Shown here: piece after piece, positions 2,723-27,587 of the stretch | Layout of the letters: each line of letters opens with the position of its first letter | How positions within the stretch are numbered: the first letter of the stretch is position 1 | Source: a virus | Virus record (IMG/VR): IMGVR_UViG_3300038365_000206 | Coordinates: 1 to 31,242 of that record | Strand: one strand, 5' to 3' | Length of the DNA: 31,242 bases | Notes under the pieces: model-generated | What the model was told of the DNA's origin: nothing | Database searches by the model: none | Seen by the model: the letters and a program-made list of their open reading frames with translations, nothing else | Made by a program: the position numbers and the translations under genes

Positions 2723-3367
2723 TCATGCCTCTGCGTAACTCATTTTAAGTGATGTTGCAGCGAAGTCAACACTTACAACTTCAGAACCAGTTATACCCTC
2801 AAAGCCCTCGGTTGTGCCATCTTTACCAGTGTTTTTAATTGCATCTGCTGCGAGGTTTGCACCTGATCGGGCCGTATCTCCCTTGTTAATGTACACATTG
2901 TTTACTTTGATTGTTGCAACCTGTGCTGTTGTGGTTATTATTGAAAAGAACATATATCCTGTTGTAGTTGCAGTAGAGGCATAATCTATTCTCTGCCAAG
3001 TATTTGAGAGTGTAATCACATTTGAAATTAATGTTTGCTGTGTAACACTGTTCGTGTTTATCTCTGTTATTTGCAGTTTAACTGTTCCAGAACCTTTTAA
3101 GTACAAACTATGCCATATTTTGTCATTTGCAACTGTATTAAGTAGTTTCTTGAAAGTTGATTGTTCAGTTACACCCTCACCAGTAGAAGATCCGGGGGTT
3201 GTGCAAAGTATGCAAGAATCCCCAGATGGAAATGTATCCGATGATGCGACTTGGGAAACAGTTGCCAAACTCAGACTCCACAAACTTTGATCCATGAGTT
3301 CGTCACCAACAACATTTCCGTCAACACTAACACGGCCAGTTGGGGCCTGGAATTCTTCAACACTCAT
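2723..3367 (-). CDS. Virion tail-associated protein with a carbohydrate-binding-module-like jelly-roll
   Basis: Between tape measure and Dit-like genes. SLYLKGSGTVKLQI...LSNTWQRIDY pattern resembles CBM4/9-like folds. GGAGG RBS present. Confidence 0.5.
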   Translation of the reverse strand: MSVEEFQAPTGRVSVDGNVVGDELMDQSLWSLSLATVSQVASSDTFPSGDSCILCTTPGSSTGEGVTEQSTFKKLLNTVANDKIWHSLYLKGSGTVKLQITEINTNSVTQQTLISNVITLSNTWQRIDYASTATTTGYMFFSIITTTAQVATIKVNNVYINKGDTARSGANLAADAIKNTGKDGTTEGFEGITGSEVVSVDFAATSLKMSYAEA

Positions 3368-3373
3368 CTTTTT

Positions 3374-6300
3374 TTATCCTCCTCGTGATCTCTGCTTTCT
3401 TAACGTTCCCTTTGCTAACTCTGACTTCAAAGCATCCTGAAACGTGCTGTTCTTAACAATGGCTTTTAAGAGGTCTGAATCGTTTATAACAGATTTAAGT
3501 GCAGCCAGTAATGTGTCCTGGTCAATATTGTCAGGTACACCTTCAAGTTTAAGGTTTAAGTTTAAATCAAGAGCCTCTTTAACCGTTAAAGTGTCCAATG
3601 TCTCTGTTGGATTGGAACTTCCCAAGTCCACAGAGGGCACTGGTCCTGCATGCACTTTAGGTGATGACCAACCGTAACCGTGCTGGAATGCAGTTGTATC
3701 AAAGACTTTTCCAGCAATAACCGCCCAAACATGTCCAATATTACCCCAATAACCATGAGCCATATAACCTGAAAGACCAAAAGCCCTGGCTAAAGCCAAC
3801 ATGATAAGGGCACCATCATAACAGTTAAACGCTCCTGAATTCAACGCTGCAGCTGGTGAACCGTAACGACTGTTCCAATAAAATGAGTACCTTGTAGCTC
3901 CGATCAATCTGGATGCAATTGTACTGAAAGCACCCATGTTGCCGGTTAATGGGAATGTGCTGTTTTTGAAGTTTGCAGCTGTTAAACCAAGACTGCCTAG
4001 ATCTCCAAAATTAGGAACGTAACCATTGACGGAGTTCATTATGGCAGTGATCCATGTGCTGCTTTGATCCCAATCACCCGCATAACAACCATCTTCATCC
4101 AGACAAGGAATTGAAGGTAAAGTGTCCAGGATCCTGAGTTGATCATCTCCATGATCACCGGTGGGTCCAGGTCCTGCAAAGTGTGGACCAGTAATACTTG
4201 GGATTCGGATCCTTCCAGGACCAGCAAAACCAGGACCAGGTCCTGCAAGAAGTAGTGCAGGATTACGGATTTTACGATAAAATATTGAAATATTGCCCTG
4301 TAAATGTGAAACTTGACTGGAAACGTTGCTGTTAATATTGCTTGCTGCATTTACCAGGCTGTCACGCATATTATTCCATGAGGACTTGACAGCTGTCATG
4401 TCTGATGCGGTTTTACTTTGAAGATTGTTTAGGGTGTCTATGGTTTTTGTTTGTATTTGACTGTAACCAGCCGTGTTATTTGATACTATGTTGTTGAGTG
4501 TGGTTGCCATGTTGTTTTTCATGGCTTCCAGGCTGGTTTTCTGTGTGTTTACAAGGTTTGTCCAGGTTGATGTGCTTGTTGTTTTCAGTGCATTGTAACT
4601 TGTTGTTGCCTTTGCCAGGCTTGCAGTTACCATTGCTGTTGCACTTTGGGTTTGTGCTTGTATGTTCCCCGTGTTTAGACTGTTGGTGGCTTGTGTTGCT
4701 GTGTCTGTGGCATTTGTGGCGGCGGTTACTGCAGTGTTTGCTGTGGATACAACTGTTGAACCCATACTGTTAGGAATGTTTACCTGTGGTTCTGCTTTCC
4801 TCCAATTTACACTTGCAAGGTCATCTGCAACGTTTTGAAATTCATCTGGCAATTCTCTTGCTTTATCAATGATAGCATCCATGGCCTTTTCAAGATATGA
4901 AGGTGAATGAATACCTAATCCAGCTTTGAAACCTTCCCAAATATTTGATGCCATCTTGACAGCTGCATTGTAAGCATCACCACCAAAACTAGTGATTTTA
5001 TTGATAACATTCCACAATACTTGTCCAACACGGCCAGGAAGGCTTGTTATATTGCTTATGAATCCATTTACAAGGTTTCTACCGGCCTGTTCAGCGTAAG
5101 CTTTAATAGCACGAGCATAATTTTGGACTTGTTGTATTGCATAGTTTAAGTAGAGCCACATTGCATGAGGTAAATTTGCAATGAAATTTATCACATTATT
5201 TACGAAGTTTATGCCTGCTTCTCGTGCATATTCAGCAATAAACCTTGACCACATTAAAACATAATTTATTGAGTTATTCAACCATATCCAGAGACGCCCA
5301 GGAAGTGATACAATCCAATTTAGGAAGTTAGTAACAAGGGTTAAACCAGCATTTGAAGCCCAAATTCCAGTTTGCACAACCCAATTTACAAGGTTTGTAA
5401 GGATCTGAATACCATATTTCACAAGATTACCTAAAAGTAATCCGAAGAAATAAGCAATCCTTTCAAGTATTGTGCCACCATGAGCATTTGCTTGTGCAAT
5501 TAAAGTACTGAAAAAATTGGTAATTGGTGCCAACAAGGATCCAAGGAAGCCTAATAAACGTCCAGGAAGTGATGCTAAAGTTGCAAATATTCCTAGAACT
5601 GCAGATCCAACACCAGAGATGAAGCTTCCAATTGCTGAGAGAACACTATTAAATGCATTTCCCACATTTACAAATGTAGTATAAACGATCTGACATGCGT
5701 GTACTATGCTGTTCCAAGCTTCTGTTAACCTGGCTAATATGGCTTGGCCCATTTCTCCAAGGTTATTCCACCAACCAAGAGCTTTTCCAATCTCATATAT
5801 TGCCGCTACCGCCGCGATGATTGCAATAACCACAAGTACAAATGGGTTTGCAAGGAGACTTGCACCTCCCAGAAGCCCAAAGAAACCTTTAAATAAACTG
5901 ATTGCAGTACCAAGTGGACCTGCGATAAGGCCAATAGACCCAACAACAAGCATAATAACAGAGGCAACAATAGCTATTTTTGAAGCTAAACCACCCGTTT
6001 TATCATCAAATGAAATCCAAGCTGAAAGAATGTCTTTAATGTAAGGTAAAATAAAAGAACCCATCTGTGTGAGTATCTGCTGAATTGAACCTTTTACAAC
6101 TTCTAATTCATTTGCAGTTGTAACATATTGACTATAACCATCATAACCTTCCGCAGCAAGTGCTTTCTGTAAAGCAACAATACGATCTTGTACTGTTGCT
6201 TGGTTTTTCATTGTGCCTAACTGGTTTTTAAGGATAGAATCCTGTTCTAAACCTGTTGTGTTACCAGTTAGAAGGTAATCTTTAAGGTCTCGTTGTGTTT

Positions 6301-7105
6301 CTATTGACTCTTTACCCATTGCAGTTGATGCAGCCATGTAATCTGCAGCTGCAATAGCCATCTGGTTTAAGACATCTACATTATCAATTCCTGCCTTATA
6401 AGCTGCACCTGAAAGTAATTGGTTCATGAATGTATCGTCACCAGGTACAGCTGCAACTATATTTTGTATACTTGCTTGTACCTGTGAAGCCTCGGAACCG
6501 AAACGCCTCATGAGGAGTGTTGCGTTTGACTCTGCATTCATTGCACCTTCAAAAGCTGTTTGCACAATACTAAACAAGCCAAAACCCGCAACAACCCCAC
6601 TTATCGCCCCATTAACACTATCAGTTGCTTGAGAAATCTCTTTTAACTTCGTCACTGCGGTTGTGGCAGCACTTGAAGCCGCACTTGCAACTTTACTGAA
6701 AGCATTACTTAACGTTGAACCTACAGTTCCAGCCACATTAGAAGCCGCTTCTTTTATAGTACTTAACCGGGCACTTATAGCACTTGACGCAGAACTCGCT
6801 GTTTCTGTAACACGATTTACAGATGATGCTAAGGCACTATTGCTGTTTATAACGTTTGTTACTGTCTGTTTTATTGATTCATAGCCTCTTTGTATTGCAT
6901 TGAATGTGCTTGAACTACGTGATCCACTCTGTTCCATGGAGGTTGTGAGGCCTTGCACACTTGTTTTTGCTGTTTCTATTGCGGTTTTAGCAGATTTTGC
7001 ACCATTTTCAATGCCTGTTTTTGTCTTGTTGAATGTGTTTCCAACTTTCTCTGCAACTGCAGATGCTTCATCAATTGCTTTGAGTATGATCTCCATTGTT
7101 GCCAT
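3374..7105 (-). CDS. Tail tape measure protein with a C-terminal transglutaminase-like (Cys-His-Asp) peptidase domain
   Basis: 1243 aa, Ala/Ser/Thr-rich helical repeats with a central hydrophobic segment, downstream of the tail chaperone. FNCYDGA...GHVWA...FDTT triad near the C-terminus. Confidence 0.9.
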   Translation of the reverse strand: MATMEIILKAIDEASAVAEKVGNTFNKTKTGIENGAKSAKTAIETAKTSVQGLTTSMEQSGSRSSSTFNAIQRGYESIKQTVTNVINSNSALASSVNRVTETASSASSAISARLSTIKEAASNVAGTVGSTLSNAFSKVASAASSAATTAVTKLKEISQATDSVNGAISGVVAGFGLFSIVQTAFEGAMNAESNATLLMRRFGSEASQVQASIQNIVAAVPGDDTFMNQLLSGAAYKAGIDNVDVLNQMAIAAADYMAASTAMGKESIETQRDLKDYLLTGNTTGLEQDSILKNQLGTMKNQATVQDRIVALQKALAAEGYDGYSQYVTTANELEVVKGSIQQILTQMGSFILPYIKDILSAWISFDDKTGGLASKIAIVASVIMLVVGSIGLIAGPLGTAISLFKGFFGLLGGASLLANPFVLVVIAIIAAVAAIYEIGKALGWWNNLGEMGQAILARLTEAWNSIVHACQIVYTTFVNVGNAFNSVLSAIGSFISGVGSAVLGIFATLASLPGRLLGFLGSLLAPITNFFSTLIAQANAHGGTILERIAYFFGLLLGNLVKYGIQILTNLVNWVVQTGIWASNAGLTLVTNFLNWIVSLPGRLWIWLNNSINYVLMWSRFIAEYAREAGINFVNNVINFIANLPHAMWLYLNYAIQQVQNYARAIKAYAEQAGRNLVNGFISNITSLPGRVGQVLWNVINKITSFGGDAYNAAVKMASNIWEGFKAGLGIHSPSYLEKAMDAIIDKARELPDEFQNVADDLASVNWRKAEPQVNIPNSMGSTVVSTANTAVTAATNATDTATQATNSLNTGNIQAQTQSATAMVTASLAKATTSYNALKTTSTSTWTNLVNTQKTSLEAMKNNMATTLNNIVSNNTAGYSQIQTKTIDTLNNLQSKTASDMTAVKSSWNNMRDSLVNAASNINSNVSSQVSHLQGNISIFYRKIRNPALLLAGPGPGFAGPGRIRIPSITGPHFAGPGPTGDHGDDQLRILDTLPSIPCLDEDGCYAGDWDQSSTWITAIMNSVNGYVPNFGDLGSLGLTAANFKNSTFPLTGNMGAFSTIASRLIGATRYSFYWNSRYGSPAAALNSGAFNCYDGALIMLALARAFGLSGYMAHGYWGNIGHVWAVIAGKVFDTTAFQHGYGWSSPKVHAGPVPSVDLGSSNPTETLDTLTVKEALDLNLNLKLEGVPDNIDQDTLLAALKSVINDSDLLKAIVKNSTFQDALKSELAKGTLRKQRSRGG

Positions 7106-18097: not shown

Positions 18098-18169
18098 TAT
18101 TCCTGCCACGAGTCGAACGTGGATCCCCGGATCCAAAGTCCAGGAGGCGTACCATTACCCCACAGGAAT
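18098..18169 (-). tRNA. tRNA-Gln (anticodon UUG), virus-encoded, no encoded CCA
   Basis: Cloverleaf: ATTCCTG/CAGGAAT acceptor (A1-U72, typical of archaeal tRNA-Gln), D stem GGGT/GCCT, anticodon stem CTGGA/TCCGG with loop CT-TTG-GA, T arm CCACG-TTCGACT-CGTGG, discriminator A. Confidence 0.95.
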
Positions 18170-27212: not shown

Positions 27213-27323
27213 TCACCTCGTAAATTTGCATTTGCCATACTCACAAAATTCACATTCACCATAGCAACCGAGTGCGTCCTCTTCTTCTTGGTATTCTTCC
27301 CAATCTGGTCTTTCACAACTCAT
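27213..27323 (-). CDS. 36-aa acidic Cys-rich microprotein (CxxxCxxCxxxxC), not in the track
   Basis: GAGGTGAAAAC RBS; MSCERPDWEEYQEEEDALGCYGECEFCEYGKCKFTR. Confidence 0.7.
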   Translation of the reverse strand: MSCERPDWEEYQEEEDALGCYGECEFCEYGKCKFTR

Positions 27324-27368
27324 GTTTTCACCTCTCAAAAATTCCTCAAGGTCAAATGACTAAAAAAA

Positions 27369-27424
27369 TGGACAAGGTGGGACTTGAACCCACAACATCC
27401 TATATCCAGCTTCGATGCTTGCCC
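27369..27424 (-). ncRNA. 56-nt mini tRNA-like RNA with a G3-U70 pair and A73, lacking a canonical anticodon arm
   Basis: Acceptor GGGCAAG/CTTGTCC, T arm GTGGG-TTCAAGT-CCCAC, discriminator A, then a T7 run; only 24 nt between the acceptor 5' strand and the T arm. Confidence 0.8.
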
Positions 27425-27427
27425 AAA

Positions 27428-27587
27428 TGGCTTGTGCAGGATTCGAACCTGCAAAGGTACATGATCCTTGATTTTTGCGTGGTGCATCTGCCTCGTGACA
27501 GGATGTCACCCGCTCATTTTTGTAACTAAATAATAGGTTTAAAGTGTAAATATCAAGGAACAAACCTTTATTCCAATAATACAAGCC
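27428..27587 (-). ncRNA. 160-nt tRNA-like RNA with a long structured insert in place of the anticodon loop
   Basis: Perfect acceptor GGCTTGT/ACAAGCC, T arm GCAGG-TTCGAAT-CCTGC, discriminator A; long-range stems AAAGGT/ACCTTT and TCCTTGAT/ATCAAGGA. Confidence 0.8.

What the first reader, a model, noticed from the sequence alone, without database searches (positions are those of the whole stretch)
27369..27424. 56-nt anticodon-less mini-tRNA with the alanine identity pair G3-U70, 3 nt downstream of the 160-nt RNA
Seen: acceptor GGGCAAG/CTTGTCC with a G-U wobble exactly at pair 3, discriminator A73, a canonical T arm (27377-27393), then a T7 terminator-like run. Only TTT separates it from the upstream element. 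The 24-nt core can be drawn with the same skeleton as the large RNA (2-nt linker, weak 3-bp D stem with 4-nt loop, 4-bp stem, single T, T arm), but capped by a 3-nt loop (AGG). Established: G3-U70 plus A73 is sufficient for AlaRS to charge minihelices and tmRNA without an anticodon. Inference: a chargeable but non-decoding tRNA mimic co-processed with its partner by RNase P/Z. The pair may be an undescribed two-component viral RNA system, for example anti-defence, an aminoacyl donor, or a translation-stress modulator. mascRNA is a size analogy only.
Basis: partly seen in the sequence, partly recalled or inferred. Interest (0 to 1): 0.85.

Follow-up and report, generated by a model that had tools for sequence, protein, structure and literature searches.

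The report
Anticodon-less alanine-type mini-tRNA gene
A virus of methane-producing archaea carries a 56-base gene shaped like an alanine tRNA with its anticodon arm removed; it is an optional cassette that is letter-for-letter identical in three otherwise diverged relatives, and similar mini-tRNAs occur in many phages, but its job is unknown.

Summary
On the minus strand, 27424..27369 has a 7-bp acceptor stem with G3-U70, discriminator A73 and a textbook T arm. It has a D-loop-like AGCUGGAUA, no anticodon arm and no encoded CCA. UUU lies before it and T7 after it. Rfam's tRNA model aligns it end to end but below threshold; ARAGORN misses it.

In related Methanobacteriales-type viruses the neighbouring 160-nt RNA is conserved, with 10 compensatory pairs. 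The mini-tRNA is optional. It is present in three sequence contexts and absent from four, always at the same spot in the T-tract after the large RNA. Where present it is 56/56 identical, although the adjacent RNA differs by 15.6%. It therefore behaves as a discrete, recently shared or strongly constrained cassette, not half of an obligate RNA pair. No sequence variant exists, so conservation of G3-U70 cannot be tested.

Non-alanine minis also exist, and I found no alanine-specific excess.

The closest described things are the tRNA-like-domain-only tmRNA of phage DS6A and synthetic alanine minihelices. It fails the tmRNA tests, and archaea lack SmpB. This scan noted similar phage minis before. 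No expression data were available.

The parts
27369..27424 (-). 56-nt anticodon-arm-less tRNA-like gene (the mini-tRNA)
   Evidence: Sequence reading. Rfam tRNA global alignment at 24.3 bits. Identical copies in L348, L002, L354, L355 and L356.
27418..27424 (-). Acceptor 5' strand GGGCAAG; G3 at 27422
   Evidence: Pairs with 27370-27376. Pair probabilities 0.54-0.99.
27394..27417 (-). 24-nt core. It folds as hairpin CAUC/GAUG with the loop GAAGCUGGAUAUAG, or as C8 A9 plus a weak D arm with D loop AGCUGGAUA, then A26 and UGUU. It takes the place of the D arm, anticodon arm and variable loop.
   Evidence: The same layout (hairpin with a CUGGA-type loop plus a short linker) recurs in phage minis.
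27377..27393 (-). T arm GTGGG-TTCAAGT-CCCAC
   Evidence: Stem pair probabilities 0.98-1.0.
27369..27376 (-). Acceptor 3' strand CTTGTCC (U70 at 27372) and discriminator A73 (27369); CCA is not encoded
   Evidence: The virus's own tRNA-Gln also lacks an encoded CCA.
27362..27368 (-). T7 run, probably the archaeal oligo-T terminator
   Evidence: T6 stands at the same place in L354-356.
27425..27427 (-). TTT spacer between the large RNA and the mini. Together with the T7 it is what remains of the single T5-T8 tract found in relatives without the mini.
   Evidence: Alignment A1.
27428..27587 (-). Conserved 160-nt tRNA-like RNA upstream: acceptor stem, T arm and a long arm in place of the anticodon arm, with C3-G70. 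It is a neighbour of the mini, not an obligate partner.
   Evidence: MFE z = -4.73. RNAalifold on 6 lineages gives 44 pairs, 10 of them with compensatory changes.
27350..27361 (-). Small hairpin AGTCATTTGACC downstream of the T7. It is homologous to GGTCTATTG(G/A)CC, which directly follows the large RNA's T-tract in L005 and L346.
   Evidence: It marks the mini as an insertion/deletion unit inside the T-tract.

Best explanation
This is a real, tRNA-derived small-RNA gene: an alanine-type tRNA that keeps the acceptor stem, T arm and a D-loop-like element but has no anticodon arm.

It is an accessory cassette in a group of tailed viruses of pseudomurein-walled methanogens. It sits inside the oligo-T tract that otherwise ends the conserved 160-nt RNA gene.

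Most likely mechanism (inferred):
1. The archaeal polymerase reads through the 3-U spacer and stops at the T7, giving a tandem precursor.
2. RNase Z and RNase P release the 56-mer.
3. The host CCA-adding enzyme completes it.
4. AlaRS charges it through G3-U70/A73 without needing an anticodon.

It cannot decode. It would therefore act away from codon reading, as a decoy or sponge for a host factor that handles tRNA acceptor ends or the tRNA elbow, or as a non-ribosomal alanine carrier.

Shown here: the anatomy, the tRNA ancestry, the presence/absence polymorphism, the perfect identity across diverged backgrounds, and the existence of similar minis in many viruses.

Inferred: transcription, processing, charging and the cellular target.
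For: **Anatomy and tRNA-model match.**

**Discrete unit.** In alignment A1 the mini is present in the window and L354 and absent from L352, L006, L005 and L346. The gap falls exactly between the large RNA's ...AAGCCA-T(n) and the downstream hairpin.

**Identity against diverged flanks.**
- Window versus L354: the large RNA differs by 19 substitutions plus 6 gap columns in 160 (15.6%).
- The downstream flank differs by 17 substitutions plus 7 gap columns in 62.
- The mini is 56/56 identical, P about 7e-5 at equal divergence.
- Identical copies occur in contigs from several samples.
- A 98% strain (X3) lists no difference in the mini.
- A 300-nt contig in X7 carries large RNA plus mini between different flanks on both sides.

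**Viral context for processing.** The viral tRNA-Gln also lacks an encoded CCA, so the virus already relies on host tRNA maturation.

**Similar minis elsewhere.**
- Several lie 1-9 nt from neighbouring tRNAs in arrays of 10-32 tRNAs: L010, L037, L079, L090 and L093.
- Nine encode CCA, among them L010, L079, L090 and L093.
- Structural constraint shows in mini families. L038 versus L145 keep G3-U70 while three T-stem pairs change on both sides. L148 versus L216 show a compensatory change in the core hairpin.

**Literature.**
- An archaeal AlaRS charges minihelices in a G3:U70-specific way (PMC11392972).
- A tRNA-like-domain-only tmRNA from phage DS6A inhibits tmRNA, perhaps by titrating SmpB (PMC4131195, PMC11915505).
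Against: - No RNA evidence of any kind.
- No sequence variant of this mini exists, so there is no covariation and no test of G3-U70 conservation.
- Perfect identity could reflect recent recombinational spread rather than selection.
- It is dispensable. Four related lineages lack it, including one whose large RNA differs from the window's by only 4 substitutions and 1 gap (L352).
- The core departs from canonical tRNA: C8 instead of U8, U10 instead of G10, and a D stem with only 3 of 4 pairs.
- Across viruses, minis are not demonstrably enriched for alanine identity. There were 31 G3-U70 sites against 8 G3-C70 sites, but full-length tRNAs with those acceptor ends stand at about 3:1 (6 against 2) in an independent set.
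- Of 12 minis found without regard to the acceptor, only 1 has G3-U70.
- No viral protein suggests a partner that uses aminoacyl-tRNA.
Confidence: 0.5

Rival explanations
1. It is a non-functional remnant: a tRNA-Ala gene, captured from a host or another virus, that lost its anticodon arm by an internal deletion. It persists and spreads only by hitch-hiking during recombination between related viruses.
For: - It is optional: absent from 4 of 7 contexts.
- It has non-canonical C8 and U10 and a weak D stem.
- It scores below the Rfam gathering threshold.
- Minis with other acceptor types occur at roughly 1% of tRNA genes in viral loci, with no clear alanine excess, as expected if some are decay products.
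- The virus encodes an ERF-type annealing protein, which could drive short-homology exchange.
Against: - The deletion would have to be exact, leaving a perfect 7-bp acceptor stem, a perfect T arm and a GG-containing loop.
- There is no drift at all in 56 nt, while both flanks differ by 15% or more.
- The identical block ends exactly at the RNA's borders on both sides, which is odd for hitch-hiking.
- Other mini families show compensatory changes.
- Many phage minis keep an encoded CCA and tight array spacing.
Confidence: 0.3
2. It is a cis-acting processing or boundary element. Like mascRNA behind MALAT1, it recruits RNase P/Z to define the 3' end of the 160-nt RNA or the 5' boundary of the early operon. 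The released mini would then be a by-product.
For: - It lies 3 nt after the large RNA and about 45 nt before the first early gene, whose ATG is at 27323.
- With the mini present, the T-tract after the large RNA shrinks to TTT, so the large RNA's 3' end must come from processing.
Against: - The large RNA has its own tRNA-like acceptor end, so RNase Z could trim it without help.
- Relatives end the large RNA at a plain T5-T8 tract.
- A mere cleavage signal would not need G3-U70 or A73.
- The Rfam mascRNA model scores 13.2 bits against a threshold of 42.5.
Confidence: 0.12
3. It is one half of an obligate two-RNA system with the 160-nt RNA.
For: - In all three contexts found, the mini sits directly behind the large RNA.
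- Both RNAs are tRNA-like and lack an anticodon.
Against: - The large RNA is conserved without the mini in L005, L006, L346/347 and L352/353.
- The large RNA diverges by 15.6% while the mini stays identical, so there is no co-variation.
- There is no unusual intermolecular pairing.
Confidence: 0.05
4. It is an integration-site remnant (attP or att fragment of a host tRNA gene), or a tRNA-like-domain-only tmRNA acting through SmpB.
For: - Integrases often target tRNA genes and leave tRNA fragments (PMC9897764).
- The lysogeny module lies within 3 kb.
- DS6A-type RNAs share the G3-U70 acceptor, the T arm and the lack of an anticodon arm (PMC4131195).
Against: - It has both acceptor strands with an internal gap, not a contiguous gene end.
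- There is no second copy or half-copy in the window or in the 16.6 kb of L348.
- The Pei-integrase intergenic region of L348 holds no tRNA fragment.
- It is polymorphic between near-identical viruses.
- The tmRNA models fail: RF02544 gives no hit at E<=10, RF00023 gives only 6.2 bits on the other RNA's T arm, and ARAGORN -m finds nothing.
- tmRNA-SmpB has not been found in archaea (PMC4131195).
Confidence: 0.03

Closest known systems
Alanine minihelix / microhelix substrates of AlaRS (synthetic; Francklyn and Schimmel 1989 as cited in PMC9976931; archaeal case PMC11392972)
   Same: Acceptor stem with G3-U70 and A73 stacked on a T arm, with no anticodon. This is the feature set reported as sufficient for alanylation, including by an archaeal AlaRS.
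   Different: This one is a natural gene and keeps a 24-nt D-loop-like core, so it probably forms a tRNA elbow. CCA is not encoded. Charging has not been tested.
tRNA-like-domain-only (CDS-less) tmRNA: mycobacteriophage DS6A, jakobid mitochondria, Mallomonadaceae plastids (PMC4131195, PMC11915505)
   Same: A short, virus- or organelle-encoded, alanine-type tRNA mimic without an anticodon arm or a message. The DS6A form is proposed to act by titrating a tRNA-mimic-binding protein.
   Different: - No detectable homology to tmRNA models.
- The host is an archaeon, where tmRNA-SmpB is not known.
- It has a D-stem-like hairpin rather than tmRNA's open D loop.
Canonical tRNA-Ala (Rfam RF00005)
   Same: A GGGC... 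acceptor with G3-U70, C4-G69 and A73, a TTCAAGT T loop and a D loop AGCUGGAUA. Its length equals a 73-nt tRNA minus 17 nt.
   Different: The anticodon arm is absent, positions 8 and 10 are C8 and U10, the score of 24.3 bits is below the 29-bit threshold, and it cannot decode.
Anticodon-less minis in phage tRNA arrays (found here; also noted earlier in this scan, e1-1943703 and e1-5354834). I found no paper describing them.
   Same: 50-64 nt, with a 7-bp acceptor, a hairpin whose loop is often of the CUGGA type, a short linker and a T arm. L010 has the very same acceptor, GGGCAAG/CTTGTCC.
   Different: The phage examples usually sit inside large tRNA arrays and often encode CCA. This one stands behind a single tRNA-like RNA in a small temperate-type archaeal virus and has only a 2-nt linker. 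Homology to any of them is not shown.
mascRNA behind MALAT1 (Rfam RF01684)
   Same: A small tRNA-like RNA cut from the 3' side of a larger non-coding RNA by RNase P/Z.
   Different: mascRNA is eukaryotic. The model scores 13.2 bits against 42.5. The resemblance is in size and position only.

Membership tests
Canonical tRNA (RF00005) | 7-bp acceptor stem plus discriminator | tested here: met
   GGGCAAG/CTTGTCC plus A73.
Canonical tRNA (RF00005) | T arm with a T-psi-C type loop | tested here: met
   GTGGG-TTCAAGT-CCCAC.
Canonical tRNA (RF00005) | D arm with G18 G19 | tested here: inconclusive
   A D-loop-like AGCUGGAUA is present. The D stem has only 3 of 4 pairs, or folds instead as the alternative CAUC/GAUG hairpin. 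C8 and U10 are atypical.
Canonical tRNA (RF00005) | Anticodon arm | tested here: not met
   Only 24 nt lie between the acceptor and the T arm. The Rfam alignment skips the arm and ARAGORN finds nothing.
Canonical tRNA (RF00005) | Score at or above the Rfam gathering threshold | tested here: not met
   24.3 bits against 29.
AlaRS substrates (tRNA-Ala identity set) | G3-U70 wobble pair and A73 | tested here: met
   G at 27422, U at 27372 and A at 27369.
AlaRS substrates (tRNA-Ala identity set) | 3' CCA end | not testable with these tools
   Not encoded: T7 follows A73. It would need the host CCA-adding enzyme, as does the viral tRNA-Gln.
AlaRS substrates (tRNA-Ala identity set) | Actual alanylation that depends on G3-U70 | not testable with these tools
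   This needs a biochemical assay. The precedent is PMC11392972.
AlaRS substrates (tRNA-Ala identity set) | Conservation of G3-U70 among homologs | tested here: inconclusive
   All copies found are identical, so there is no variation to judge.
TLD-only tmRNA (DS6A type, mt-tmRNA RF02544) | Alanine-type acceptor plus T arm, with no anticodon arm and no tag reading frame | tested here: met
TLD-only tmRNA (DS6A type, mt-tmRNA RF02544) | Detectable homology to tmRNA models | tested here: not met
   RF02544 gives no match at E<=10. RF00023 does not hit the mini. ARAGORN -m finds nothing.
TLD-only tmRNA (DS6A type, mt-tmRNA RF02544) | An SmpB partner in the host | not testable with these tools
   No host genome is at hand. 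The virus is of archaeal type: MCM, a TFIIB zinc ribbon and a Pei-like lysin. tmRNA-SmpB has not been identified in archaea (PMC4131195).
att-site tRNA fragment | A contiguous copy of one end of a tRNA gene, repeated at the element's borders | tested here: not met
   Both acceptor strands are present with an internal gap. There is a single copy in the window and in L348.
mascRNA-menRNA (RF01684) | Match to the family model | tested here: not met
   13.2 bits against 42.5, E = 5.8.

The most novel reading that the evidence does not exclude
The mini-tRNA is a self-contained, horizontally exchanged effector cassette of archaeal viruses. It would be an alanine-charged tRNA mimic that never decodes and works independently of tmRNA/SmpB. 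For example, it could neutralise a host defence or toxin that recognises tRNA acceptor ends or the tRNA elbow, or it could divert AlaRS, aEF1A or the CCA-adding enzyme. It would then belong to a wider, undescribed class of non-decoding mini-tRNAs that viruses of both bacteria and archaea carry next to their tRNA genes.
Probability: 0.15. Interest if true: 0.85.

Novelty: new variant of a known kind. Interest (0 to 1): 0.6.

Why it matters
Alanine-type tRNA mimics without an anticodon are known mainly as synthetic AlaRS substrates and as rare tRNA-like-domain-only tmRNAs thought to act through SmpB. An intact natural example in an archaeal virus, whose host has no tmRNA-SmpB system, would need a different mode of action.

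It behaves as a discrete cassette that is identical in diverged genomes, and look-alikes sit in many phage tRNA arrays. Together these suggest that viruses use non-decoding mini-tRNAs more widely than annotation shows, because standard tRNA finders miss them.

The case is directly testable. Natural virus variants with and without the cassette exist, and the biochemical assays (RNase P/Z, CCA addition, AlaRS with a U70C control) are standard.

Tried and rejected
- ARAGORN, at default, intron, low-threshold and mitochondrial settings, does not call the mini. At low threshold it draws the large RNA as 'tRNA-Ala(tgc) with an 80-nt intron' at a non-canonical site, which I do not credit.
- Rfam at gathering thresholds finds nothing in the window.
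- GenBank phages: only a 35-nt T-arm-like hit, in ANMV-1.
- Single-protein locus searches with the flanking genes returned only the near-identical contig.
- A pattern for the large RNA's core gave only the near-identical contig in viral contigs. In genome contigs and metagenome contigs it gave only chance hits, none alignable by blastn.
- No RNA holder was listed among public runs, so expression could not be addressed.
- Mini-to-large-RNA duplex energy is not unusual.
- A D-loop-anchored scan (AGCTGG...T arm) meant to sample minis without fixing the acceptor gave only 2 minis, both with G3-U70. That is too few to conclude anything.
- The 31-against-8 excess of G3-U70 over G3-C70 minis is matched by the base rate of full-length tRNAs, so I dropped the claim of alanine-specific enrichment.
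- Homologs of a protein upstream of the module in L355 led to unrelated contexts without the RNAs.
- Pfam and PHROGs scans of the viral proteins found no enzyme that handles aminoacyl-tRNA.
- Literature searches for natural anticodon-less mini-tRNAs in phages or archaeal viruses found nothing beyond TLD-only tmRNA.

Full report
**What is there**

The finding lies on the minus strand, as do almost all genes of the window. Read 5' to 3', positions 27424..27369 run as follows:
- GGGCAAG, the acceptor 5' strand.
- A 24-nt core.
- GTGGG-TTCAAGT-CCCAC, the T arm.
- CTTGTCC, the acceptor 3' strand.
- A, the discriminator.

Pair 3-70 is G-U. Only TTT separates the element from the 3' end of the 160-nt RNA (27587..27428). 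Seven T follow it, then a small hairpin, then the ribosome-binding site and ATG (27323) of the first early gene. CCA is not encoded. The virus's own tRNA-Gln (18169..18098) does not encode it either.

**Is it more than chance**

- The Rfam tRNA model aligns the 56-mer from model position 1 to 71. It skips most of the D arm and the anticodon arm and scores 24.3 bits. E is 0.005 against all families on 281 nt and 1.4e-4 for the record. The gathering score is 29.
- ARAGORN misses it at every setting tried.
- A 5-bp stem with a TTCRANN loop occurs five times on both strands of the window. Three of these are the tRNA-Gln, the large RNA and this element.
- Acceptor and T stems have high pair probabilities. 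The overall MFE z-score is only -1.46, as expected for so short an RNA.

**The core**

- The lowest-energy fold, at -17.7 kcal/mol, extends the acceptor 5' strand directly into a 4-bp hairpin, CAUC/GAUG. Its 14-nt loop contains CUGGA. UU then links it to the T arm.
- A canonical numbering also fits: C8 A9, D stem UCGA/UAGG with 3 of 4 pairs, D loop AGCUGGAUA, A26, UGUU. The element then has exactly the length of a 73-nt tRNA without its 17-nt anticodon arm.

**The virus**

- The window encodes an MCM helicase, an ERF annealing protein, portal, terminase, tail proteins, a Bro-N protein and an integrase.
- It also has a protein with a TFIIB zinc ribbon.
- A longer, near-identical contig (L348) adds a lysin next to the integrase. 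The lysin has a peptidoglycan-binding domain and a transglutaminase-like core, with a weak match to the pseudomurein endoisopeptidase family.
- Together these point to a tailed virus of pseudomurein-walled methanogens. I could not name the host.

**Relatives**

Homologs of the Bro-N protein and of a 65-aa early protein led to contigs from other samples. Alignment A1 and the contig layout give seven contexts.

With the mini:
1. The window, L348, L002 and a 98% strain in run X3.
2. A 300-nt contig in run X7. Its large RNA and mini differ from the window at 4 positions, but both flanks are different.
3. L354, L355 and L356, from three samples.

Without the mini:
4. L352/L353.
5. L006.
6. L005.
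7. L346/L347.

All seven keep the large RNA. On six of them, RNAalifold predicts 44 pairs, 10 with compensatory changes, including the T stem. The neighbour is therefore a genuine structured RNA.

The mini always occupies the same spot. Where it is absent, the large RNA is followed by a single T5-T8 tract and a hairpin. Where it is present, the tract is split into TTT and T6-T7 with the 56 nt between them.

**Identity across diverged backgrounds**

- Between the window and L354, the large RNA differs at 19 substitutions plus 6 gap columns out of 160 (15.6%).
- The downstream flank is a different hairpin type, with 17 substitutions and 7 gaps in 62 columns.
- The mini is 56/56 identical. At equal divergence the chance of that is about 7e-5.
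- The last 28 nt of the large RNA already differ at 7 positions, so the identical block starts and ends at the borders of the mini itself.
- Conversely, L352 has a large RNA only 4 substitutions and 1 gap away from the window's, yet lacks the mini.

Presence therefore does not follow the tree of the neighbouring RNA. The mini has either been moved or lost several times, or it is kept under very strong constraint. It is not needed for the large RNA to persist.

**A wider class**

- A pattern for the same acceptor found a 54-nt mini with GGGCAAG/CTTGTCC and an encoded CCA. It lies 5 and 7 nt from its neighbours in a 23-tRNA array of a 169-kb viral contig (L010). The same pattern found a full-length tRNA-Ala with that acceptor (L012).
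Among 118 sites it gave 31 sites (26 unique sequences) of 50-64 nt that have all seven acceptor pairs and are not inside an ARAGORN tRNA. About 4 are expected by chance.
- Many sit 1-9 nt from tRNAs in arrays of up to 32 genes, and nine encode CCA.
- Their common layout is an acceptor, a hairpin often with a CUGGA-type loop, a 2-12-nt linker and a T arm. Some have a fully canonical D arm (L017, L040).
- Two families show structural constraint. L038 and L145 keep G3-U70 while three T-stem pairs change on both sides. L148 and L216 differ by a compensatory change in the core hairpin.

**Is alanine identity the point**

I tested this and could not show it.
- The control pattern with G3-C70 gave 8 minis among 119 sites.
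- In an independent set of loci, full-length tRNAs with the two kinds of acceptor ends stand at 6 to 2. The 31-to-8 ratio is therefore about what the parent pool predicts.
- In 3.3 Mb of fetched viral DNA, 12 minis were found without regard to the acceptor, and only one has G3-U70. Others include tandem 53-nt minis with a G3-C70 acceptor and C73 (L190, L220).

Anticodon-less minis are thus a broader viral phenomenon. The alanine type is one common form of it.

**Comparison with what is known**

- I found no paper describing natural anticodon-less mini-tRNAs in phage arrays or archaeal viruses.
- The closest described entities are CDS-less tmRNAs: the form in mycobacteriophage DS6A that is 'little more than the TLD', and reduced organelle forms. 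A similar molecule inhibits tmRNA, perhaps by titrating SmpB (PMC4131195; PMC11915505).
- The present element fails the homology tests for tmRNA. tmRNA-SmpB has not been identified in archaea (PMC4131195). It may work like such a mimic, but it is not a member of that family.
- For charging, a G3:U70-specific alanylation of acceptor/T-arm minihelices by an archaeal AlaRS is reported (PMC11392972).
- Earlier notes of this scan describe similar phage minis and larger alanine-type RNAs with inserts. They gave me the lead to the DS6A literature, which I then read myself.

**Other readings**

- Integration-site remnant: unlikely. The element has both acceptor strands, is single-copy in the window and in L348, and the lysin-integrase intergenic region holds no tRNA fragment.
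- Pure processing signal: unnecessary. The large RNA has its own tRNA-like end, and relatives end it at a plain T-tract.
- Pseudogene: this is the main rival. The element is optional and its core is atypical. Against it stand the exact preservation of every helix, the absence of any drift, and the fact that the identical block coincides with the RNA's borders.

**Verdict**

The idea of an obligate two-RNA system is not supported.

My best reading, at about even odds, is a functional accessory mini-tRNA cassette. At about one in three it is an intact-looking but functionless remnant.

Noticed in passing
window 27428-27587 (-); L354:1035-1188, L352:271-429, L006:3799-3953, L005:3587-3738, L346:1464-1604: The 160-nt tRNA-like RNA is conserved in six lineages. 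RNAalifold predicts 44 pairs, 10 with compensatory changes. It has an acceptor, a T arm and a long two-part arm in place of the anticodon arm, with C3-G70 and so no alanine mark. Its acceptor pair 7-66 switches from U-A to A-U in L354.
   Followed up: partly
L010:5611-5664, L090 (- strand 3367-3421), L093:2611-2664, L037 (- strand 1985-2043), L079:10164-10222: These are 54-59-nt anticodon-less minis with G3-U70 and A73, most with an encoded CCA. They lie 4-9 nt from neighbouring tRNA genes in phage arrays of 10-32 tRNAs, and ARAGORN does not call them.
   Followed up: partly
L190:349-401 and 484-536; L220 (- strand) 5386-5438 and 5521-5573: Tandem pairs of 53-nt minis with a GCGGGTG acceptor, G3-C70 and C73. 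The copies differ in the core but keep both stems, so non-alanine minis exist too.
   Followed up: no
L348:5900-8019: The near-identical 36-kb contig places a Pei-like lysin (peptidoglycan-binding domain plus transglutaminase core) directly before the integrase. The window therefore lacks about 5 kb (a tail protein, a 163-aa gene and the lysin) and is cut inside the integrase gene. The 'provirus' label does not show integration.
   Followed up: partly
L354:1000-1034, L355:676-703, L006:3770-3798: In contexts where the RNA module is not preceded by the Bro-N gene, an AT-rich palindrome (AAGCTTTT..AAAAGCTT type) sits directly upstream of the large RNA. It could be a terminator or a promoter element.
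   Followed up: no
window 27213-27323 (-): The first open frame after the RNAs is a 36-aa cysteine-rich peptide with a strong ribosome-binding site. Along with the next 68-aa frame, it is absent from L354, L352 and L006, where the 65-aa zinc-finger-like gene follows the RNA module directly.
   Followed up: no
L398 (- strand) 6235-6302: A 68-nt tRNA-like element with G3-U70 and A73 and an odd, duplicated-looking D region (AGTGGCTGAGCTGG). ARAGORN does not call it.
   Followed up: no
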